NCBI GenBank assembly: GCA_030684815.1
Contig: JAUXXQ010000196.1
Span: 13,930-77,929, forward strand
Reading direction: 5' to 3'
Source of the DNA: Methylobacter sp.
GTDB taxonomy: Bacteria > Pseudomonadota > Gammaproteobacteria > Methylococcales > Methylomonadaceae
Length of the DNA: 64,000 bases
The translations under genes were made by a program, and so were the position numbers. How positions within the stretch are numbered: the stretch's first letter is position 1; each line of letters starts with the position of its first letter. This document shows positions 9,468 to 57,027 of this stretch, piece after piece. The notes below the pieces were generated by a model, which was given only the letters and a program-made list of their open reading frames with translations, was not told where the DNA came from and did not search any database.

Positions 9468-9588
9468 AACAACATCCTGACTCCCCGCTACACCCCTGAT
9501 GACTCAACGACCTTGGCTATATGGCCAACAGAGCTTTAGAATCTTTCATTAGCCGCAACAGTCGGCAAATTCAGATAAAAATCAGGCA

Positions 9589-9645
9589 AAGGTACAAGGC
9601 GAAAAAGCCAAGCTTCAAGCAAGCTGCGTTTTCGCCTTGCACCTT
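9589..9645. repeat. Palindromic repeat (AAGGTACAAGGCGAAAA/TTTTCGCCTTGCACCTT)
   Basis: 17-bp near-perfect inverted repeat; same family as 1401 and 2849. Confidence 0.7.
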
Positions 9646-9702
9646 GAATTAACCGCCCGCATGCAAAAAAATAACGCTTGACATCAAATCCGGCCAATCA
9701 TC

Positions 9703-9949
9703 TTTTCCACAAGCGAATACAAACTATTTTTGTTTCAAGCGGATAATCGGAAAAGTTCACACGGCGACCAAAATAGTCCCAATAACGCCACCTTTTACAC
9801 AGCTAACTCATTGATAGTTATTATCATATCAACTGTAAAACAGGCAGTGGCCACAATCTGGCCGATTTAACAAAAAAGCTTTAGAAGTGAATAGTTAGAC
9901 ACTTTATTTTCAGTTTATACACAGAGTTATCCACAGAAAATGTGGATAA
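9703..9949. promoter_or_regulatory. Cluster of five DnaA boxes plus an IHF consensus site (DARS/datA-like)
   Basis: TTWTNCACA matches at 9703-9711, 9793-9801, 9915-9923 and 9927-9935 (+), and 9941-9949 (-). IHF consensus WATCAANNNNTTR on the - strand at 9804-9816. Confidence 0.75.
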
Positions 9950-11446: not shown

Positions 11447-12631
11447 TTATTGTTGCTGTTTAATGACGCCAACATTGGCAGCGTGTGTCTCATCTTCATC
11501 GCCACCGTCATCTTTTGACTGCAATGAAAGCCCGCCACTCGACCGGTCTTCACCCGAAGCCAATTTGATTTGCAGACGCAACTCGTTTTGGGAATCGGCA
11601 TTCCTTAACGCTTCGTCATAATCTATTTTGCCCGCCTGATACAGCTCCAACAACGCCTGATCAAAAGTTTGCATGCCCAATTCACGTGATTTTGCCATCA
11701 ACGGCTTGATGCTGGCCGCTTCGCCTTTGGCGATATAATCCGAAATCAACGGCGTATTTAACAAGATCTCAATCGCCGCACAGCGGCCGCCATCAACGGT
11801 CTTGACCAAACGTTGGGAAATAATGGCGCGTAAATTGACCGAAATATCCTGCATCAGCTTAGTCTGAGCCTCCATCGGGAAAAAACCTAAAATCCGGTCG
11901 ATAGCTTGGTTGGCATTGTTCGCATGCAAAGTCGCCAATGCCAAATGGCCGGTTTGGGAAAACTCCAACCCGTATTCCATAATTTCGGCACTGCGGATTT
12001 CGCCCAGCACAATCACATCGGGAGCCTGCCGCAAGGTATTGTGCAGCCCGGCTTCCCAGCTTTTGGTATCGACACCGACTTCCCGCTGCATGACAATGCA
12101 GTTTTTATGGGCATGCACATATTCAATCGGGTCTTCCAGCGTGATGATATGGCCGTAACTGTTGGCGTTACGATGGTCGATCATCGCCGCCATCGAGGTC
12201 GATTTACCCGAGCCGGTACCGCCCACCATGATGATCAGGCCGTTTTTGTGCATCATCACCTCTTTTAAAACAGGCGGTAAACCCAATTTATCAAAATTGG
12301 GTATTTCTGCAGCAATAACGCGGATAACCAAACCCTGGCAGCCTTGCTGGACATAGGCATTGACCCGAAACCGGGATAACCCAGCCGGCGCAATGGCAAA
12401 ATTGCACTCTTGAGTTTCTTCAAATTCTTTCAGCTGCTTATCATTCATAATGCACTGTGTCAGCGCTTTGGAATCGTTAGCCGACAAGGGCTGCTGCGAA
12501 ACCGGCGACATCTTGCCTTTGATCTTGATGGCAGGCGGAAAACCGGCGGTAATAAATAAATCAGACCCTTCTTTATGCAACATAAGTTTGAGCAACTTAA
12601 TCATAAAGTCCATCGCTTCTTTTCTTTCCAT
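11447..12631 (-). CDS. pilU: Type IV pilus ATPase PilU
   Basis: GGTGSGKST, TLEDPIE, LRQAPDV and TLHANNANQAIDRI; PilU-type C-terminus. Confidence 0.9.
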   Translation of the reverse strand: MERKEAMDFMIKLLKLMLHKEGSDLFITAGFPPAIKIKGKMSPVSQQPLSANDSKALTQCIMNDKQLKEFEETQECNFAIAPAGLSRFRVNAYVQQGCQGLVIRVIAAEIPNFDKLGLPPVLKEVMMHKNGLIIMVGGTGSGKSTSMAAMIDHRNANSYGHIITLEDPIEYVHAHKNCIVMQREVGVDTKSWEAGLHNTLRQAPDVIVLGEIRSAEIMEYGLEFSQTGHLALATLHANNANQAIDRILGFFPMEAQTKLMQDISVNLRAIISQRLVKTVDGGRCAAIEILLNTPLISDYIAKGEAASIKPLMAKSRELGMQTFDQALLELYQAGKIDYDEALRNADSQNELRLQIKLASGEDRSSGGLSLQSKDDGGDEDETHAANVGVIKQQQ

Positions 12632-37967: not shown

Positions 37968-39473
37968 ATGAATAAAATCCAACTGCTGTATGTTGAAAAT
38001 GTGGTGTCCCGAAAAAAAGCCGGGGTTGAGCAAGGCTTGATTTTTTTTATGCAGGTGCAAAATGCCGGTTACGACAAGCGTGTTGAGGTATTTTGGGCGG
38101 GCGAGGATGGCGTCTGGCAAACCCTGCCCGCAAACTATCACAGCAAACTGGGGCATGATAAAGAATACTGGCAAGCGCAGGCCAGTTTTAAGCTGAATGC
38201 CGACCAATCGCTGCCCGGCAATATTCAATTCGGTGTGCGTTATCAAGTTTCCGGGCATGAATATTGGGACAATAACCAAGGCTTGAATTATGGCAGCGAA
38301 GCCGATTCCGGCATTAACGTCATCAACACGGCACCGGTGTTAAATATCGGCTTTGCAGACCGGTTTGAAGAGGGGCAAAAAAACATTCCGGTGACGGTCG
38401 CGGTGCATAACTTCCAGCCCGGCGATAAAGTGACCTTGCACTGGACGACCGACAACTGGCGGCACAGCCAGAAAACGCCCTGCCATTTTAAAAGGGCTTA
38501 TTGGGACAAAGAGGCGCTCAGCAATGCCAGAAACCCAAACCAATACGGCCGCGCAATTTGGAAAGGCTGGCTAAAAATCGGCCAGGCTTTTCGCCTGCAA
38601 TACAGCATTTGCCTTGAGCGCAACGGCGAGTTTTTTTGGGACAATAATGACGGCAACAATTACTCGCTTAGCCACGAACCGCTAAAAGTGTTAATCCTTA
38701 ACCTGCATTGTTACCAAGAAGACCATCAGGATTATAAATTCTCGCAAATAGCCAAAGCGATTAAGGAGCTGGATGTTGACGTGGTTTGTCTGCAAGAAGT
38801 GGCCGAACTTTGGAATGACGGGGCTGGGGATTGGGCGTCCAATTCCGCCCGGATCATTAATGACCGGCTGCCGGTGCCTTATCATATCCACACCGACTGG
38901 TCGCATTTGGGTTTTGACAAGTACCGCGAAGGCGTGGCCATTTTAAGCAAATATCCGCTGCACAAACACGACGCCCGCTATGTGTCGGACAGCCATGACG
39001 TTTACAGCATACACTCGCGCAAAGTGGTCATGGCGCAAATCAAAGTGCCCCGTATCGGCCTGATTAATGTGTTTTCGGCACATTTAAGCTGGTGGGAAGA
39101 CGGTTTTGCCGGGCAATTCCAACGCTTGTGCGAATGGGCCGACGCTAAAAAATCGGCGGCGGTGACCGCAACCTTATTATGCGGCGATTTTAATATTGCT
39201 GCCGGATCGACCGGTTATCATCTGGTGGTCGATGCGCACCAATATGACGACCAGTATTTGGCCGCCAATGAGCAAGGTGTATTTGACAAAATTTTCCGGG
39301 TTAACGATCCGCATTGGCAAGATTATTTGAGCGACGATTACCGTATCGATTATATTTTTCTGGATAAAACCAGCGGATTGCAAGTCATCTCAGCGCGGGT
39401 TTTATTCACCGAACAGGATTACGGCAGCGTTTCCGACCATTGCGGTTATTTTATGGTTTTTGAGCCTAAATAA
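37968..39473 (+). CDS. Tandem CBM21-like domains fused to an EEP (exonuclease/endonuclease/phosphatase) domain
   Basis: Two modules ending YWDNNQGLNY and FWDNNDGNNY; EEP motifs LNLH, LQEV, HLSWW, GDFN, RIDYIF and SDH; no signal peptide. Confidence 0.8.
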   Translation: MNKIQLLYVENVVSRKKAGVEQGLIFFMQVQNAGYDKRVEVFWAGEDGVWQTLPANYHSKLGHDKEYWQAQASFKLNADQSLPGNIQFGVRYQVSGHEYWDNNQGLNYGSEADSGINVINTAPVLNIGFADRFEEGQKNIPVTVAVHNFQPGDKVTLHWTTDNWRHSQKTPCHFKRAYWDKEALSNARNPNQYGRAIWKGWLKIGQAFRLQYSICLERNGEFFWDNNDGNNYSLSHEPLKVLILNLHCYQEDHQDYKFSQIAKAIKELDVDVVCLQEVAELWNDGAGDWASNSARIINDRLPVPYHIHTDWSHLGFDKYREGVAILSKYPLHKHDARYVSDSHDVYSIHSRKVVMAQIKVPRIGLINVFSAHLSWWEDGFAGQFQRLCEWADAKKSAAVTATLLCGDFNIAAGSTGYHLVVDAHQYDDQYLAANEQGVFDKIFRVNDPHWQDYLSDDYRIDYIFLDKTSGLQVISARVLFTEQDYGSVSDHCGYFMVFEPK

Positions 39474-39484
39474 AATTATTAATG

Positions 39485-39571
39485 GAACACGGATTACACA
39501 GATAAGACGGATTTTAAAAAGTGATTATCCGTTTCATCCGCGTTCTATTTCCTTTGTTGCTGAGCAGTTAC
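39485..39571. repeat. AACACGGAT-family palindrome ending in GCTGAGCAGTTAC
   Basis: gaacacggattacacagat...atccgtttcatccgcgttctatttcc...gctgagcagttac. Confidence 0.7.
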
Positions 39572-39626
39572 AAAAATACTTTCACAGTCTGGTAAGGCTT
39601 CGCCCTTTCATCATGGAGATAAAAAT

Positions 39627-41219
39627 ATGCAGATAGCAGAACATTACGCCGCACCCACCCATGCCAATCTGGGCGGTTCTTTCCAGCGCGTAAATGATTT
39701 TAACGACAAATTTTATATCCGCTGGGGAAAAATAGACTTTGATGTGTTTTACGGCGTTCTGGCCAATATCAAAGTGATCATCAAAGTTTACCGCGACGAA
39801 ATCTGTGAAACCTACATTGTCGACACCGATGCCTACGATATTCAGTGGGATAGGCACAAACGCTGCACCCGGGATTTTTATATCCACCCATTTTCCAATA
39901 ATTTCGGCCACATTAACTGCATTAAATTTGCCTTTATCGTGCATCTGGATGAACGCTCGATTGCCTCGCAAAACGAATATATCTTTATGGACTGGCAGCA
40001 ACTGCAAGGCGACCAGCCGCAGTACCGGCGCATTACCGGCGACTGGGCGACAGCAAACCCTTATCGCGCCTACGAGTTAAATGCTGACGAATTGCAGAGC
40101 GATGCGGATTGGTACAACCACCATTTTGACGCCTTGCAGCTGGTGCCCAAGTTCACCAAAGGCCAGCAGTTCCACCCCTTTCATCCCAAGCGTTATATAC
40201 ACGACCTGATCGACAAGGTTATCCGCAGCAAACACGAAAATCCAGGCCGTTTATGCACGATAAAGGTCAGCGTCGATTGCATTGACGATCATGATTTCAT
40301 TACCCATTTGCTGAACGCCAGCGATCAGGGGGTTTTGGTGCAATGTATCGTCGACTGGCGAAAAATGACCTTGACCAACAGCCAAAATTATGCGCGCCTC
40401 AAGCGTTCACGGATTGAATTGGTCGGCGTGTTTTGCAGCCCCAAGCATCACTTGATTGAAGTGGAGCCGGATATGCACACCAAGTTCATCATTTTCAATG
40501 ACGAAGACAGCATTCTGGGCTCATTTAACATCACTTTCGACCGCTGGTGGGCCAACTGGGAATCGGGGATGACCTTCCATTCCAAAGGCATCTGCCGCCT
40601 GCTGGACAACATTTTTCAAAGCCAGCGCGGCGGCGTTATCCAAAAATACGGCATTGACCCATTAAGCCATTTCAACCTGCTCTACACCTTTGGCCGCCAC
40701 GTCATGCTGAACGGCCAGCCGTACCGGCCGCATCACGCCATTTTGGCCGAGATTAACCGCGCCCGGCATTCGATTAAGCTGTCGATATTCCTGATTGGCG
40801 ATTTGCTCGGCGACCATCACGACAGCGTCGTCAACGCGCTGATCAATGCCAAAAACCGGGGCGTTTATGTGCATATCCTGCTGAACGGGCATTTGGCCCG
40901 GCAAGGGCGTGTCGGCGTAGAACGTTCCATGCACGATGAACTCAACCGCCCGCTGCTGCCGACGGTCGAACGCTTAAAACATGCCGGTATCCCGATAGGC
41001 CTGGTTTACGGCCAGGACGACCATCCGGTGCCTTATTCGCCGATACATTCCAAATACTGCATTATCGACGATTATATTGTCATCGAAGGCAGTTTTAACT
41101 GGTACAACACCTCGGTTTTTTCCCATGATTTATTGGTTATCGCGGCCAACCACGACGTGGCGCAACCTTATTTGTACGAGTTTGAACAAATACAGCACTC
41201 ATTCAGGGTGTACTATTGA
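39627..41219 (+). CDS. Phospholipase D superfamily protein with two HKD-type motifs and an uncharacterised N-terminal domain
   Basis: HTKFIIFN...GSFN...NWE and HSKYCIID...GSFNW; no TM segment or signal peptide seen. Confidence 0.8.
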   Translation: MQIAEHYAAPTHANLGGSFQRVNDFNDKFYIRWGKIDFDVFYGVLANIKVIIKVYRDEICETYIVDTDAYDIQWDRHKRCTRDFYIHPFSNNFGHINCIKFAFIVHLDERSIASQNEYIFMDWQQLQGDQPQYRRITGDWATANPYRAYELNADELQSDADWYNHHFDALQLVPKFTKGQQFHPFHPKRYIHDLIDKVIRSKHENPGRLCTIKVSVDCIDDHDFITHLLNASDQGVLVQCIVDWRKMTLTNSQNYARLKRSRIELVGVFCSPKHHLIEVEPDMHTKFIIFNDEDSILGSFNITFDRWWANWESGMTFHSKGICRLLDNIFQSQRGGVIQKYGIDPLSHFNLLYTFGRHVMLNGQPYRPHHAILAEINRARHSIKLSIFLIGDLLGDHHDSVVNALINAKNRGVYVHILLNGHLARQGRVGVERSMHDELNRPLLPTVERLKHAGIPIGLVYGQDDHPVPYSPIHSKYCIIDDYIVIEGSFNWYNTSVFSHDLLVIAANHDVAQPYLYEFEQIQHSFRVYY

Positions 41220-53403: not shown

Positions 53404-56400
53404 TTATTTGCCCAAACGCCGTTCCGTTGCCAGCACCAATTGCGTGGTCTTCAACACGCTATCGGGATTCAGGCTCATCGAATCGATGCCGATTTCAACC
53501 AAAAACTCCGCCATTTCTGGATAATCCGACGGCGCCTGACCGCAAAGTCCGCAATGTTTGCCGTTACGCCGTGCGCCCTCAACAGCCAGACGGATCATTT
53601 CCTTGACGCCGGGGTCGCGTTCGTCAAAGTCCTCGGCAAGAATCGCGGAATCGCGATCCACGCCCAAGGTCAACTGGGTCAAGTCATTGGAACCAATAGA
53701 AAAACCGTCGAAATGTTGGGAAAAGGCGTCTATTTGAATGACGTTATTGGGGATTTCGCACATGACATAAATCTGCAAGCCGTTATCACCACGTTTTAAG
53801 CCCAGCTCTGCCATATAATCCAGCACTTTTTTAGCTTCTTGTACGCGCCGACAAAATGGAATCATTAAAATAACATTGGTCAGTCCCATTTCATCCCGCA
53901 CCCGTTTCATTGCCCGGCATTCCAACGCAAAACCTTCTGCGTAAGCGGGATGGATGTAGCGCGACGCGCCACGAAAGCCTATCATGGGATTTTCTTCATC
54001 AAACTCAAACCAACTGCCGCCCAGCAAGGTGGCGTATTCGTTGGTCTTAAAATCGGACATGCGCACCACCACCGGTTTCGGATAAAACGCGGCGGCAATA
54101 GTGCCGACGCCTTCCGACAGTTTTTCGATAAAGTAATCTTCGGGGCTGGCGTAATGGCGCGTTAATTGATTGAGTTGCCCGCGTTCAGCGGCGTCTTGCA
54201 CTTTCTCGGGGTGTATCAGCGCCATCGGATGCGCTTTGATGTATTCGGTGATGATAAATTCCATCCGCGCCAAACCCACACCGGCATTGGGCAGGAAACT
54301 GGTTTTGAACGCCAGTTCGGGATTGCCGATATTGAGCATGATGTGGGTTTTGGGCTGTTGCAGGCCAGACAAGTCGGTGCTTTGAATGTCGAAATCGAGC
54401 AGGTCGGCATAGACTTTACCGACATCGCCCTCGGCGCAGGACACAGTGACTAGGCTGTCATGCTGAATCAACGTGGTGGCATTGTCGCAACCGACTACGG
54501 CAGGAACACCTAGTTCACGCGATATTATCGCGGCGTGACAATTATTCACTAATACAGGCGTGTAGCGTTCGGAAAAGACAATATAATTGTGATGGTCGGC
54601 AACCGTGATGTTATAAACAGCTTGTTCCTCTAACTCATGTACCGTTTGTAAGCGCAATTGACGTAAATCGCTGGCTAATAATTTTTCTAAATTATTTTTT
54701 AATGTGCTATCGGTCACTTGTTCTAGTGTGGCGCGAAGCTGTTGTTCGTCAATCAAATAATTTTTAGCACTGCGATTATTAATATCAGAATTAAAGGGTG
54801 TGGTAAATAACTGACGCGTGTTAAAAAAGCGTGTGCCTGTCCTTACTCGTGCGTCCTGACAACGTACACGTTGCGTGTATTGATTCAATAAGTCTAATTT
54901 TTCCACAATCTGCACGTTATAAATTGTGCGATTGACGGTCACGCTAGGCACTGTGCCAATTCGTAGACACGCCACAATCACGGCTTCCAATAATTCTTGC
55001 TTGGAAACGTAGATATTAACGCGCCCGTTGTTGAAGCTGCCGTCACCATCAATCACGCCCGCTAAAAAAGAGCAGACTAAATCAGTATCACCCTTCAGCA
55101 AAGTTTGACTAATGGTTGTTGCTTCATCATGCAGTTGGTAGGCGACATCTTTAGAAAAACAACGGTAAGCCGTTGCCTCGCCAACAACTTGCTGACCACG
55201 AATAAACCCTTGGGATTGTTTTTTCTCGAAGGCTTTAAATAATTTGCCATACACGCTATGCAGTGCGTCATTCATGGCAGCAATAAATTGTTGTTTAACC
55301 GCTGTGGGTTTTTGAATAAACACCACTTCGCCGTGTGTACGGCTACGATGAATATGTCCATCAGTCATGATACCGCCCAACAAATAAGCCAGCTTTTTCT
55401 GTTTATTGGTGCTACTGGTTAGCGCGGGAATATATTGTGCAAGCAAAGCACATTCTTGATTGCTTAGCATCTCTTGCAGTTCTGTATCAACCAATTGACC
55501 ATCACGCAGGTTTAGCATCTTATGGTCAGCGGTTACTTTGAGCGTGTTGTTTTTCATACGCCCTGTTTGTGACACATTGACTTGCAACAATCGTGCGGTT
55601 TTTTTCATGACTGCTTCGACGTTTTTCCATTCTATTTTTAGCGTGTCACGGTTAAGCGAGGGAACTTGTATATCTTCACAACCACGCTGTTCTAGTTCAG
55701 CAAAGGTCAAGAAACCTTGATTGGTTAATAATATCGTATCACCTGAAAAACAGGTTCTGCCACCACGATTAGTGACGATTGCCGAGGCTATTTTCATCAC
55801 CGGTTCCCAGTCCGGCGTGGTCATGTCGGCCACCAGAATATCGCCCGCTTTAAAGCTGCTCAATTGTTCCAGTTTGTCGATAATGCGCGCGTTGCCGCTG
55901 GCAATTTTGCTGCCGACTGCATGGCCGATTACTATCGGCGCGGCTGACTGTTTAAGGCTGTATTGCTCCAAGACCATGCCGCGCAACTGCGAAACCACGG
56001 TCTCAGGGCGCGCCTGCACGATATACAAAGTGCCGTCGATACCATCTTTCGCCCATTCTATATCCATCGGCCTAGCCTGCCCGGCCTTGGCGCTGTAGTG
56101 TTTTTCTATTTTAATCGCGTAATCGGCCAAGGTCAGCACATCGGCATCGTTCAAGCAATAGCGGTTGCGCTCTTCGGCAGAGGTGACAATATTATGCGTC
56201 GGTTCGCGGGTGCGTCCGTCGCTGTAGACCATTTTGATTTTCTTCGCGCCCAGGGTGCGCCTTAATACCGCCCGATGGCCTTGTTCAAAGGTCGGCTTAT
56301 GCACATAAAATTCGTCGGGGTCGACCGCGCCTTGCACCACATTTTCGCCCAAGCCGTAAGCGCCGGTAATGAACACCACATCGGTAAAACCCGATTCAGT

Positions 56401-57027
56401 GTCCAACGAAAACATCACGCCGCTGGCGTCCAAATCCGAGCGCACCATCTTCATGATGCCGATAGATAAAGCCAGCTTGAAATGGTCGAAGCCCTGATCG
56501 ATTCGGTAATGTATCGCGCGGTCGGTGAATAGGCTGGCAAAACAGCGTTTGCAGGACTCCAACAGAGCCTGGTCGCCGCGTATGTTCAGGTAAGTGTCCT
56601 GTTGACCGGCAAAACTGGCGGTCGGCAAATCTTCAGCGGTGGCGGAGCTGCGCACGGCCACGCTTAAATCATCGCCGTACTGTTGTTTCAGCTGGTTGAA
56701 GGCGGCGATAATTTGCTGTTCAAGGTCTTTGGGGAAAGGCGCGGCATAGATGATTTCCCTGGCTTTGCGCGCACGGTTGGCAAGATCGGTCACATCGTCA
56801 GGGTTCAAGCCGTCCAATGCCTGATGCAGCGCATCCCAGCCCTGCGCCTGATCCAACACGTAACGGTAAGCCTCGGCAGTCACGGCAAAACCGTTGGGAA
56901 TCTGTATGCCTTGCGGGGTTAATTCCCGGTACATTTCACCTAAGGAGGCATTTTTGCCGCCGACCAACGGCACGTCTTCAATCGTTAATTCATTAAACCA
57001 ACGGATATAGTTTGCTTGCTCGGACAT
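53404..57027 (-). CDS. ppsA: Phosphoenolpyruvate synthase containing an intein (1207-aa precursor, ~803 aa after splicing)
   Basis: VGGKNASLGEM, VRSSATAEDLPTASFAGQQ, RGGRT|CHAAI, RMSDFKTNEY, MCEIPNN and FSIGSNDLTQ. Confidence 0.95.
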   Translation of the reverse strand: MSEQANYIRWFNELTIEDVPLVGGKNASLGEMYRELTPQGIQIPNGFAVTAEAYRYVLDQAQGWDALHQALDGLNPDDVTDLANRARKAREIIYAAPFPKDLEQQIIAAFNQLKQQYGDDLSVAVRSSATAEDLPTASFAGQQDTYLNIRGDQALLESCKRCFASLFTDRAIHYRIDQGFDHFKLALSIGIMKMVRSDLDASGVMFSLDTESGFTDVVFITGAYGLGENVVQGAVDPDEFYVHKPTFEQGHRAVLRRTLGAKKIKMVYSDGRTREPTHNIVTSAEERNRYCLNDADVLTLADYAIKIEKHYSAKAGQARPMDIEWAKDGIDGTLYIVQARPETVVSQLRGMVLEQYSLKQSAAPIVIGHAVGSKIASGNARIIDKLEQLSSFKAGDILVADMTTPDWEPVMKIASAIVTNRGGRTCFSGDTILLTNQGFLTFAELEQRGCEDIQVPSLNRDTLKIEWKNVEAVMKKTARLLQVNVSQTGRMKNNTLKVTADHKMLNLRDGQLVDTELQEMLSNQECALLAQYIPALTSSTNKQKKLAYLLGGIMTDGHIHRSRTHGEVVFIQKPTAVKQQFIAAMNDALHSVYGKLFKAFEKKQSQGFIRGQQVVGEATAYRCFSKDVAYQLHDEATTISQTLLKGDTDLVCSFLAGVIDGDGSFNNGRVNIYVSKQELLEAVIVACLRIGTVPSVTVNRTIYNVQIVEKLDLLNQYTQRVRCQDARVRTGTRFFNTRQLFTTPFNSDINNRSAKNYLIDEQQLRATLEQVTDSTLKNNLEKLLASDLRQLRLQTVHELEEQAVYNITVADHHNYIVFSERYTPVLVNNCHAAIISRELGVPAVVGCDNATTLIQHDSLVTVSCAEGDVGKVYADLLDFDIQSTDLSGLQQPKTHIMLNIGNPELAFKTSFLPNAGVGLARMEFIITEYIKAHPMALIHPEKVQDAAERGQLNQLTRHYASPEDYFIEKLSEGVGTIAAAFYPKPVVVRMSDFKTNEYATLLGGSWFEFDEENPMIGFRGASRYIHPAYAEGFALECRAMKRVRDEMGLTNVILMIPFCRRVQEAKKVLDYMAELGLKRGDNGLQIYVMCEIPNNVIQIDAFSQHFDGFSIGSNDLTQLTLGVDRDSAILAEDFDERDPGVKEMIRLAVEGARRNGKHCGLCGQAPSDYPEMAEFLVEIGIDSMSLNPDSVLKTTQLVLATERRLGK
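54541..55752 (-). mobile_element. 404-aa intein with LAGLIDADG homing endonuclease
   Basis: Starts CFSGDT, block B TADH, ends VYNITV...PVLVNN before the +1 Cys; motifs LLGGIMTDG and FLAGVIDGDG. Confidence 0.93.

What the first reader, a model, noticed from the sequence alone, without database searches (positions are those of the whole stretch)
37968..39473. Cytoplasmic tandem-CBM21 plus EEP phosphatase: candidate bacterial glucan (glycogen) phosphatase
Seen: two modules with the CBM21-like pattern (V.N...K.V...W...W..., ending WDNN.G.NY), no signal peptide, and an EEP domain with intact catalytic motifs whose start (LNLHCYQED..Q..IAKAI...D.V.LQEV) resembles maltose-6'-phosphate phosphatase MapP. 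Established: CBM21 binds starch/glycogen; eukaryotic glucan phosphatases (laforin, SEX4) are CBM-phosphatase fusions of a different fold; methanotrophs store glycogen. Inference: a convergent CBM-phosphatase acting on phosphorylated alpha-glucans, an activity I am not aware of being characterised in bacteria.
Basis: partly seen in the sequence, partly recalled or inferred. Interest (0 to 1): 0.72.

Follow-up and report, generated by a model that had tools for sequence, protein, structure and literature searches.

The report
Glycogen-tethered phosphatase with PLD partner
A methane-oxidising bacterium encodes a cytoplasmic enzyme that joins two glycogen-binding modules to a sugar-phosphate phosphatase, always together with an uncharacterised phospholipase-D-type enzyme and often inside the glycogen-synthesis operon, which makes the pair an untested candidate for the first bacterial system that removes phosphate from glycogen.

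Summary
ORF 37968-39473 (+) encodes a 501-aa protein with two CBM21 modules and an EEP domain with all catalytic residues. It has no signal peptide and no possible N-terminal extension.

The EEP domain belongs to the MapP/3teb sugar-phosphate phosphatase subfamily:
- 29% identity over its full length to the protein in MapP's gene position in Enterococcus faecium.
- Best fold matches are 3teb and the glycan 6-phosphatase BT3783.

The classical MapP setting is absent from this 99%-complete genome: no PTS EIIC and no GH65 maltose phosphorylase.

- The gene forms a module with the downstream two-HKD PLD-family gene (39627-41219). Both occur in exactly the same 61 of 201 genomes of the order, and they are adjacent in 27 of 28 loci.
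- In at least eight genera the pair sits directly beside glgB-glgA. In this genome it has moved away from the glg cluster.
- Relatives of the EEP domain are fused to other starch-binding modules (CBM25/26).

Best reading: a glycogen-targeted phosphoesterase pair, analogous by convergence to laforin/SEX4. The chemistry and the PLD's role are untested. No publication describing it was found.

The parts
37968..39473 (+). Gene for the 501-aa CBM21-CBM21-EEP protein (cytoplasmic)
   Evidence: ORF; Pfam CBM_21 x2 plus Exo_endo_phos; AF2 model pLDDT 89.8; TAA two codons upstream of the ATG
37977..38321 (+). CBM21 module 1 (about aa 4-118)
   Evidence: Aligns to Rhizopus oryzae glucoamylase CBM21 (2djm, E 6e-5). 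The equivalents of its ligand residues are kept: W47->W50, Y94->W100, Y32->Y35, F58->Y57, K34->K37, E68->E66, N96->N102, N101->N107. Only Y83->G89 is lost. These positions are conserved across homologues.
38337..38675 (+). CBM21 module 2 (about aa 124-236)
   Evidence: Best Pfam CBM_21 stretch, 137-234. Hits the PPP1R3C CBM21 structure 7qf7 at E 5e-7. W159, W164, W198, W224, D225, N226, N227, N231 and Y232 are conserved or nearly so; the site-II aromatic equivalent is not kept.
38679..39470 (+). EEP phosphoesterase domain of the MapP/3teb subfamily (aa 238-501)
   Evidence: 3teb_A E 5e-20 by sequence and 4e-19 by fold. 29% identity, E 3e-28, to the MapP-position protein of E. faecium. Residues invariant across the subfamily: N245 H247 E251 Q276 E277 N292 H313 E321 S340 R351 H372 W375 D407 N409 R459 S489 D490 H491.
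39474..39626 (.). 153-bp spacer between the two genes, with a GGAGA ribosome-binding site before the PLD start
   Evidence: Sequence. No terminator-like site on the + strand. The spacer is only about 20-30 bp in some relatives, e.g. L006, L024, L027.
39627..41219 (+). Partner gene: 530-aa soluble two-HKD PLD-superfamily protein
   Evidence: PLDc_2 E 1.4e-34, two stretches. Downstream of the EEP gene in 27 of 28 loci with enough DNA. Present in exactly the same 61 of 201 genomes as the EEP gene. 74-97% identical across the family.
39627..40076 (+). N-terminal all-beta domain of the PLD partner (about aa 1-150), no known family
   Evidence: AF2 pLDDT about 70-86, all strands. No PDB hit with a profile. 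No Pfam hit. Not CBM21-like by hhalign, probability 0.1%. Conserved also in the 63%-identical partners in L046 and L047.
40476..40529 (+). HKD motif 1 of the partner (H284-x-K286-xxxx-N291 ... G298-S-F-N301), with Asn at the usual Asp position
   Evidence: Alignment A2; H284, K286, N291, G298, S299, F300 and N301 are invariant in 21 sequences
41046..41099 (+). HKD motif 2 of the partner (H474-x-K476-xxxx-D481 ... G488-S-F-N491), canonical
   Evidence: Alignment A2; invariant in 21 sequences; Pfam PLDc 474-495

Best explanation
The gene encodes a cytoplasmic phosphoesterase held on glycogen. Two CBM21 modules bind alpha-1,4/1,6-glucan. They hold a Mg2+-dependent EEP catalytic domain of the MapP type against the polymer. 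MapP is a sugar 6-phosphate monoesterase that acts on alpha-glucosides. I propose that the domain hydrolyses phosphate esters on glucosyl residues of glycogen or of the maltodextrin chains released from it. Such esters would otherwise hinder the branching enzyme, the phosphorylase and the GH77/GH57 enzymes. The enzyme works as an obligate pair with the downstream soluble two-HKD PLD-family protein. That partner most likely handles a phosphodiester, or another phosphoryl-transfer step, on the same substrate. One possibility is diester to monoester by the PLD, then monoester to free hydroxyl by the EEP. Functionally the pair would be a convergent bacterial counterpart of the eukaryotic glucan phosphatases laforin and SEX4.

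Shown: the domain architecture, the intact catalytic and ligand-binding residues, the cytoplasmic location, subfamily membership of the EEP domain, strict co-inheritance with the PLD gene, and frequent placement in the glgB-glgA operon.

Inferred: binding to glycogen, the phosphoglucan substrate, monoesterase chemistry, and everything about the PLD's step.
For: - Architecture and residues.
- EEP subfamily: 3teb is the top hit by sequence and by fold. The E. faecium protein in MapP's gene position (PTS IIBC -> EEP, divergent from GH65-pgmB) is 29% identical over its full length and itself hits only 3teb in the PDB. BT3783, an EEP-fold phosphatase shown to dephosphorylate phosphorylated high-mannose glycans (PMC4978465), is among the next best fold matches.
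- Independent fusions of this EEP clade to other starch-binding modules: CBM25/26, X25 and CBM58 in P0267, and CBM21-Kelch in P0295.
- Glycogen context: the cluster malQ(GH77)-GH57-glgC <> glgB-glgA-EEP-PLD is confirmed by Pfam in L036. glgA lies within 5 kb of the pair in 10 of 27 sampled pair-positive genomes from 8 genera, in both co-directional and convergent arrangements. glg genes are present in 14 of 31 fetched loci.
- Pairing with the PLD gene: 27 of 28 loci. The two genes are found in identical sets of 61 of 201 genomes of the order, including six genomes where they are not adjacent (unlinked, about 18 kb apart, or on different contigs). The pair recurs in divergent metagenome contigs, with the PLD 63% identical.
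- Classical MapP physiology is excluded here: no PTS_EIIC and no GH65 in the 99%-complete genome. There is also no GlgE pathway.
- Both genes are covered by RNA-seq contigs of a Methylobacter relative at depths similar to glgA. This is weak evidence.
Against: - No biochemical data exist for any member of the family.
- Phosphate in bacterial glycogen is barely documented: 0.9 nmol/mg in E. coli, and a 2026 review calls the question open (PMC13666283).
- No glucan dikinase homologue is detectable in the genome, so the source of any glucan phosphate is unknown.
- The pair is dispensable for glycogen metabolism as such: 18 of 20 pair-negative genomes of the same family still have glgA.
- One pair-positive genome (G086) gave no Glyco_transf_5 hit.
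- In the window's own genome the pair is not linked to the glg cluster, which lies on another contig.
- EEP enzymes include diesterases and nucleases, and sequence alone cannot fix the specificity.
- The PLD model is of low confidence (pLDDT 58), and the PLD's N-terminal domain gives no functional clue.
Confidence: 0.55

Rival explanations
1. A MapP-like phosphatase for small soluble substrates. The enzyme dephosphorylates free phospho-maltooligosaccharides, for example 6-phospho-maltose or maltodextrins produced when phosphorylated chains are trimmed. The CBM21 modules only concentrate it at the granule. The polymer itself is not the substrate.
For: Characterised MapP acts on disaccharide phosphates (from my recollection of Mokhtari et al. 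2013, which I did not read here). The EEP domain keeps all residues that are invariant in the subfamily, including in the MapP-position protein. Many Methylomonadaceae also carry a stand-alone 280-330-aa paralogue, about 38-40% identical.
Against: Two tandem polysaccharide-binding modules kept over the whole family, and repeated fusion of this clade to other starch-binding modules, argue for action at the polymer. No PTS and no GH65 exist to make or use maltose-6'-P.
Confidence: 0.2
2. A writer/eraser cycle. The PLD-family partner is a phosphotransferase that puts phosphate on glycogen through a phospho-histidine intermediate, as in the PLD-like domains of polyphosphate kinase. The donor could be a nucleotide or polyphosphate. 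The CBM21-EEP enzyme removes the phosphate again. Together they would control granule solubility and turnover, like GWD/SEX4 in plants.
For: Strict co-inheritance of the two genes. No GWD homologue is present. The partner gives a Pfam PP_kinase_C match over the gathering score (27.8 against 25.8 bits, residues 184-242) and PPK1 structures among its fold hits. PLD chemistry proceeds through a covalent phospho-His intermediate (established for the superfamily).
Against: The PPK similarity is what any PLD fold would give. The fold model is poor (pLDDT 58). No nucleotide-binding or polyP-binding domain was detected. Most HKD enzymes are hydrolases or transphosphatidylases.
Confidence: 0.1
3. A function unrelated to glucan phosphate. 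The pair are nucleases or lipid phosphodiesterases, for example a defence or DNA-repair pair like Tdp2/Tdp1, or phospholipid remodelling enzymes. The CBM21 modules would serve only for localisation or bind another ligand.
For: Tdp2 structures are strong fold hits after the sugar phosphatases. The PLD partner gives weak DrmC/NucT-type matches. EEP and PLD superfamilies both contain nucleases and lipases.
Against: Matches to nuclease models fall far below their cut-offs (xth 21.8 bits against 99; DrmC 40 against 133). The EEP protein has no PADLOC hit. The CBM21 ligand residues are conserved. The operon with glgB-glgA occurs in many genera. No defence or mobile-element genes are consistently nearby.
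Confidence: 0.08

Closest known systems
MapP, maltose 6'-phosphate phosphatase (EC 3.1.3.90) of Enterococcus faecalis, and the structural-genomics structure 3teb (Leptotrichia buccalis)
   Same: Same EEP subfamily. 29% identity over the full length to the protein in MapP's gene position. 3teb is the best hit by sequence and by fold. The subfamily-specific invariant residues are shared. JGI already labels the homologues with this name.
   Different: MapP is a stand-alone enzyme of about 270 aa, tied to a maltose PTS and a GH65 maltose phosphorylase. This protein has two N-terminal CBM21 modules, sits in a genome with no PTS EIIC and no GH65, is paired with a PLD-family gene, and is linked to glgBA.
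Laforin (CBM20-DSP) and plant SEX4/LSF2 glucan phosphatases
   Same: The same design logic: a starch/glycogen-binding module fused to a phosphatase, cytoplasmic or plastidial, associated with storage-glucan metabolism.
   Different: The catalytic fold and mechanism are unrelated: a metal-dependent EEP fold here, a Cys-based dual-specificity phosphatase there. The CBM family differs (CBM21 against CBM20/CBM48). An obligatory PLD partner has no counterpart. No known kinase partner (GWD) is present.
BT3783, the mannosyl-6-phosphatase of Bacteroides thetaiotaomicron (PDB 4c1r/3mpr)
   Same: An EEP-fold phosphomonoesterase that removes phosphate from a glycan (phosphorylated high-mannose N-glycan/yeast mannan; PMC4978465). 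Foldseek E about 2e-11 to 5e-11.
   Different: Periplasmic, single-domain, specific for mannan, only about 16% identical, and part of a polysaccharide utilisation locus, not a storage-polymer operon.
Eukaryotic PP1 glycogen-targeting subunits (PPP1R3A/B/C) and Rhizopus glucoamylase CBM21
   Same: The same CBM21 family, with ligand-binding aromatic residues conserved. In the PP1 subunits the module also brings a phosphatase to glycogen.
   Different: There the CBM21 recruits a protein phosphatase that acts on enzymes. Here it is covalently fused, in tandem, to a sugar-phosphate-type phosphoesterase.

Membership tests
CBM21 (Pfam PF03370) | Profile match above the curated threshold | tested here: met
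   80 bits against a cut-off of 28.9, two stretches. It is the only CBM21 protein in the genome.
CBM21 (Pfam PF03370) | Beta-sandwich fold with the conserved starch-binding aromatic residues (Rhizopus CBM21 sites I and II) | tested here: met
   All-beta modules at pLDDT about 80-92. Module 1 keeps W50, W100, Y35, Y57, K37, E66, N102 and N107. Module 2 keeps the site-I Trp (W164) and the WDNN motif but not the site-II Tyr equivalent.
CBM21 (Pfam PF03370) | Binds starch or glycogen | not testable with these tools
   Needs a pull-down or ITC with glycogen, amylopectin or cyclodextrin.
MapP-type EEP sugar-phosphate phosphatases (EC 3.1.3.90, 3teb family) | EEP fold with a complete catalytic/metal-binding residue set | tested here: met
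   N245, E277, H372, D407, N409, D461, D490 and H491 are invariant. Fold match to 3teb at E 4e-19, TM 0.81 on the target.
MapP-type EEP sugar-phosphate phosphatases (EC 3.1.3.90, 3teb family) | Full-length homology to a MapP orthologue, with the subfamily-specific residues shared | tested here: met
   E 3e-28, 29% identity, to the protein encoded after PTS IIBC and beside GH65-pgmB in E. faecium. H247, E251, N292, H313, E321, S340, R351, W375 and R459 are shared. Orthology of that protein to the characterised MapP rests on synteny only.
MapP-type EEP sugar-phosphate phosphatases (EC 3.1.3.90, 3teb family) | Single-domain enzyme that serves PTS-imported maltose (malT neighbour, GH65 maltose phosphorylase downstream in the pathway) | tested here: not met
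   501 aa with two CBM21 modules. No PTS_EIIC and no GH65 in the 99%-complete genome. The neighbours are a PLD gene and, in relatives, glgBA.
MapP-type EEP sugar-phosphate phosphatases (EC 3.1.3.90, 3teb family) | Hydrolyses maltose 6'-phosphate | not testable with these tools
   An enzyme assay is required.
Glucan phosphatases (laforin/SEX4/LSF2) | Dual-specificity phosphatase (Cx5R) catalytic domain | tested here: not met
   No DSP family hit. The catalytic domain is EEP.
Glucan phosphatases (laforin/SEX4/LSF2) | Carbohydrate-binding module fused to the phosphatase, associated with storage-glucan metabolism | tested here: met
   Tandem CBM21 plus phosphatase domain. Operon with glgB-glgA in many genera.
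Glucan phosphatases (laforin/SEX4/LSF2) | Releases phosphate from C3/C6-phosphorylated glucan | not testable with these tools
   Needs assays with phospho-amylopectin or 33P-labelled glucans.
EEP nucleases (ExoIII/APE1, DNase I-like) | Match to the nuclease equivalog models | tested here: not met
   TIGR00633 21.8 bits against a cut-off of 99; TIGR00195 19.3 against 182.6.
PLD superfamily (partner gene 39627-41219) | Two HKD motifs (HxKxxxxD...GSxN) | tested here: met
   H284/K286/N291...GSFN301 and H474/K476/D481...GSFN491, invariant in 21 homologues. PLDc_2 E 1.4e-34. Motif 1 has Asn in place of the usual Asp.
Cardiolipin / phosphatidylserine synthases, DrmC, NucT (partner gene) | Match to the curated equivalog models | tested here: not met
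   All matches are far below their cut-offs: DrmC 40 against 133, NucT 28 against 297, cardiolipin synthase 25 against 290.

The most novel reading that the evidence does not exclude
The CBM21-EEP and PLD proteins together form a dedicated bacterial system for covalent phosphate on glycogen. One version is two-step repair: a phosphodiester or cyclic-phosphate lesion made by GlgA from ADP-glucose is opened by the PLD, and the resulting monoester is removed by the EEP. The other is a true write/erase cycle, with the PLD as a new kind of glucan phosphotransferase. Either would show that prokaryotic glycogen phosphorylation is real and managed, by enzymes of folds unrelated to GWD and laforin/SEX4.
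Probability: 0.3. Interest if true: 0.85.

Novelty: new variant of a known kind. Interest (0 to 1): 0.7.

Why it matters
Covalent phosphate controls starch turnover in plants, and its mismanagement in glycogen causes Lafora disease in humans. A September 2026 review states that prokaryotes lack laforin. It also states that it is unknown whether bacterial glycogen is phosphorylated, and by what machinery (PMC13666283). A comprehensive 2024 review of prokaryotic alpha-glucan enzymes does not mention a glucan phosphatase, CBM21 or MapP in the 300,000 of its 445,374 characters that are held.

A glycogen-operon-encoded, glycogen-tethered phosphoesterase pair makes that question directly testable in culturable methanotrophs. 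It would add a convergent, metal-dependent solution to the same problem.

It could also matter in practice. Glycogen is the main carbon sink that competes with product formation in industrial type I methanotrophs. The secreted CBM25/26-EEP relatives may be useful starch-dephosphorylating enzymes.

Tried and rejected
- **Defence-system reading.** PADLOC gave nothing for the EEP protein and only weak generic DrmC/Mko matches for the PLD. Rejected because of the glg synteny.
- **M1P phosphatase for a GlgE pathway.** Rejected: no GlgE domain in the genome.
- **Canonical MapP role.** Rejected: no PTS_EIIC and no GH65.
- **GWD-like kinase partner.** The only PPDK_N proteins are ppsA (with its intein) and an ordinary 937-aa PPDK.
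- **PLD N-terminal domain as a hidden CBM21 or other known domain.** hhalign probability 0.1%; no PDB or Pfam match.
- **Structure of the PLD partner.** The model is poor (pLDDT 58) with the shallow alignment available, and Foldseek returned only generic PLD/PPK1 hits.
- **3l1w as E. faecalis MapP.** Not supported: the MapP-position protein hits only 3teb.
- **Context of the stand-alone EEP paralogue in other Methylomonadaceae.** No carbohydrate genes nearby, so uninformative.
- **Context of a secreted CBM25/26-EEP relative.** Uninformative.
- **RNA runs for the window itself.** None found.
- **Literature searches.** 3TEB, 3L1W, and CBM21 with bacterial glucan phosphatase gave nothing relevant.
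- **Flanking genes in the window.** The SDR-DUF1731, TolC, UPF0114 and galU genes are not conserved next to the pair in any fetched locus, so I do not count them as part of the system.
Full report
**Observation**

The window comes from a Methylobacter genome. The closest loci are Methylobacter MAGs, and all 31 related genome loci are Methylococcales. ORF 37968-39473 (+) encodes 501 residues.

- Pfam finds two CBM_21 stretches (E 1.9e-22, 80 bits against a cut-off of 28.9) and one Exo_endo_phos domain (residues 256-491, E 1.2e-17).
- It is the only CBM21-bearing protein in the 4.29-Mb, 99%-complete genome.
- An in-frame TAA lies two codons upstream of the ATG.
- The AlphaFold2 model (mean pLDDT 89.8, pTM 0.78) starts its first beta-strand at residue 4.

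There is therefore no signal peptide and no room for one.

**The glucan-binding modules**

Module 1 aligns to the Rhizopus oryzae glucoamylase CBM21 (2djm, E 6e-5). The numbering of the aligned chain reproduces what I recall as the ligand residues of that domain (my recollection of the Rhizopus CBM21 literature, not checked here).

- Site I: W47 and Y94 correspond to W50 and W100.
- Site II: Y32 and F58 correspond to Y35 and Y57.
- K34, E68, N96 and N101 are also kept.
- Only Y83 is lost (G89).

Module 2 matches the CBM21 of the glycogen-targeting subunits PPP1R3C and PPP1R3B (E 5e-7 and 2e-5). It keeps the site-I Trp (W164) and the FWDNNxGxNY motif, but not the site-II Tyr equivalent. These positions are conserved among 20-30 homologues down to about 33% identity. 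Binding itself is inferred.

**The catalytic domain**

- The best solved relative by sequence is 3teb (E 5e-20 over residues 238-495).
- By fold, the best matches are 3teb (E 4e-19), then 3l1w, then 3mpr/4c1r, and only after these the Tdp2 structures. 3mpr/4c1r is BT3783 of Bacteroides thetaiotaomicron, an EEP-fold phosphatase shown to dephosphorylate phosphorylated high-mannose glycans (PMC4978465).
- A tblastn search of plasmids found Enterococcus, Lactococcus and Bacillus homologues.
- On an E. faecium plasmid the homologue lies immediately downstream of a PTS IIBC gene and divergent from GH65-pgmB. That is the arrangement I recall for MapP (Mokhtari et al. 2013, not read here).
- That protein is 29% identical to the window's EEP domain over its whole length (E 3e-28). 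In the PDB it hits only 3teb (3e-37).

An alignment of the window's domain with that protein and with diverse relatives shows the generic EEP catalytic residues invariant: N245, E277, H372, D407, N409, D490 and H491, with D461 nearly so. A subfamily-specific set is also invariant: H247, E251, N292, H313, E321, S340, R351, W375 and R459.

Matches to nuclease models are far below threshold. The domain is a member of the MapP/3teb sugar-phosphate phosphatase subfamily. JGI's label for the homologues, 'maltose 6'-phosphate phosphatase', reflects this.

The physiological setting of MapP is missing, however. The genome has no PTS EIIC, no GH65 maltose phosphorylase and no GlgE pathway.

**Independent support from domain shuffling**

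In the representative library, the same EEP clade is fused to other starch-binding modules.

- P0267 carries CBM25/CBM26 N-terminally and X25/CBM58-like modules C-terminally.
- P0295 carries CBM21 plus Kelch repeats.
- P0481 has what looks by eye like a signal peptide (MKRLVALTVGVSIMLCVIAVQA) and, from its alignment with P0267, a CBM25/26-like N-terminus. Pfam recorded only the EEP domain for it.
- Proteins made only of tandem CBM21 modules also exist.

Repeated recruitment of alpha-glucan-binding modules argues that the clade's substrates are alpha-glucan-linked.

**The partner**

The next gene (39627-41219, +) follows after 153 bp and has its own GGAGA ribosome-binding site. It encodes a 530-aa soluble protein with two HKD motifs (PLDc_2 E 1.4e-34). 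Motif 1 is H284-x-K286-x4-N291...GSFN, and motif 2 is canonical.

Its first 150 or so residues form an all-beta domain with no Pfam, PDB or CBM21 similarity.

- In 27 of 28 related loci with enough downstream DNA, this gene directly follows the CBM21-EEP gene. None of the other flanking genes of the window is conserved.
- In 201 genomes sampled from the order, the CBM21-EEP gene is present in 61 (all in one family, 16 of 52 genera).
- The PLD gene is present in exactly the same 61 genomes. These include six where the two are not adjacent: unlinked, about 18 kb apart, or on different contigs.
- The PLD protein is more conserved (74-97%) than its partner (61-93%).
- A sample of 400 genomes from the whole phylum contains no further copy.
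- Divergent metagenome contigs do carry the same pair, with the EEP 49-51% and the PLD 63% identical, N-terminal domain included.
- One distant CBM21-EEP gene (L041) has no PLD neighbour.

The two genes form a co-inherited functional module. The earlier first-stage note e1-5255946 had flagged the neighbour, and this is now tested.

**Glycogen context**

I searched for the glycogen synthase domain in 27 pair-positive and 20 pair-negative genomes of the family. In 10 of the 27 pair-positive genomes, from eight genera, glgA lies within 5 kb of the pair.

ORF maps and Pfam scans give the cluster malQ(GH77)-GH57-glgC <> glgB-glgA-CBM21EEP-PLD. It is co-directional in L019, L021, L023, L036, L039 and L040 (-style coordinates also place G120/L037, G130 and G160 here). 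An alternative, convergent arrangement, EEP-PLD> <glgA-glgB, occurs in Methylobacter tundripaludum and Methyloglobulus loci. In all, 14 of the 31 loci contain glg genes.

In the window's own genome the glg cluster is on another contig (L035) and the pair has moved away.

The pair is accessory. 18 of the 20 pair-negative genomes keep glgA, and one pair-positive genome (G086) showed no Glyco_transf_5 hit.

RNA-seq contigs of a close relative of M. tundripaludum cover the EEP gene, the PLD gene and glgA at comparable depths. This is weak evidence of expression.

**Mechanism**

Shown:
- a cytoplasmic protein with two ligand-competent-looking CBM21 modules;
- an intact MapP-type active site;
- obligate pairing with a PLD-family enzyme;
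- ancestral membership of the glycogen operon.

Inferred: the enzyme is held on glycogen and hydrolyses phosphate esters on glucosyl residues of the polymer or its chain ends. MapP's substrate carries the phosphate on C6 of the non-reducing glucosyl of an alpha-1,4-glucoside (from my recollection of Mokhtari et al. 2013). A 6-phosphorylated chain end would present the same motif.

The PLD partner, whose superfamily works through a phospho-histidine intermediate on phosphodiesters, plausibly performs a preceding diester-cleaving step. Less likely, it performs a phosphate-writing step.

The origin of the phosphate is unknown. No GWD homologue is present. One possibility is a side reaction of GlgA with ADP-glucose, analogous to what I recall being reported for mammalian glycogen synthase. 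This is my own inference.

I put 0.55 on the polymer-phosphoesterase reading, 0.2 on a granule-localised phosphatase for small phospho-oligosaccharides, 0.1 on a write/erase cycle, and under 0.1 on a nuclease or lipid function.

**Comparison with what is known, and novelty**

The catalytic domain is a member of the MapP/3teb subfamily. The protein fails the architectural and contextual features that define MapP itself. It works like laforin/SEX4 (a CBM plus a phosphatase at a storage glucan) but is not a member of that family, because it has no DSP domain.

No paper describing a bacterial CBM-fused glucan phosphatase was found. A 2026 review explicitly lists prokaryotic glycogen phosphorylation and its machinery as open.

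Earlier agents of this scan reached the same reading on homologues in other genomes. That agrees with mine but is not independent evidence.

I rate it a new variant of a known kind, with interest 0.7.

Noticed in passing
window 39474-39626; L003 about 9575-9772 and 12480-12540: The spacers around the pair carry short repeated elements. In the M. tundripaludum-like RNA-seq assemblies the contigs break exactly there, and the summed word depth jumps 5-10-fold (about 1000-2400 against 150-370). This points to a multi-copy, transcribed intergenic repeat family. The first-stage notes list the same modules elsewhere in the window.
   Followed up: partly
G198:C1:2633553-2634371 (L042:6036-6914), G054 (L043:6244-7086), and about 20 other Methylomonadaceae genomes: Many genomes that have the pair also carry a stand-alone EEP paralogue of 280-330 aa, 37-40% identical to the EEP domain. 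Its neighbours (ribA, M20 peptidase, methyltransferase) are not carbohydrate genes. The window's own genome lacks it.
   Followed up: partly
P0481, P0487, P0267 (representative proteins; L045): Relatives of the same EEP clade carry CBM25/CBM26-type starch-binding modules (Pfam-confirmed in P0267; inferred from alignment for P0481 and P0487). P0481 and P0487 start with a hydrophobic segment that looks like a signal peptide. P0267 also has X25/CBM58-like modules. They are candidate extracellular starch-phosphate phosphatases of starch degraders.
   Followed up: partly
P0295 (768 aa): CBM21 - Kelch beta-propeller - EEP architecture in a high-GC organism; another independent fusion of this EEP clade.
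   Followed up: no
G086 (genome search handle): A genome with both the CBM21-EEP and PLD genes (50% and 73% identity) but no Glyco_transf_5 (GlgA) hit, despite 99% completeness.
   Followed up: no
G010, G118, G176, G089 (pair-negative genomes of the same family): A second, much longer Glyco_transf_5 open frame (693-845 aa) next to the ordinary glgA. It may be a fused or extended glycogen/starch synthase.
   Followed up: no
L035 (own genome, contig C27) 1809-3503; L036 1634-3325: The glycogen cluster of these methanotrophs includes a GH57 protein of about 560 aa between malQ and glgC, besides the GH13 GlgB.
   Followed up: partly
window 53404-57027 (-): The PPDK_N search shows a 1210-aa open frame for PEP synthase. 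This fits the first-stage note of an intein insertion. I did not examine it further.
   Followed up: no
L046 7375-8819: In this metagenome contig the CBM21-EEP gene is split into a 215-aa ORF with weak CBM21/CBM53 hits and an overlapping 272-aa EEP ORF whose C-terminal part also looks frame-shifted. This is probably a long-read assembly error, not a pseudogene.
   Followed up: no
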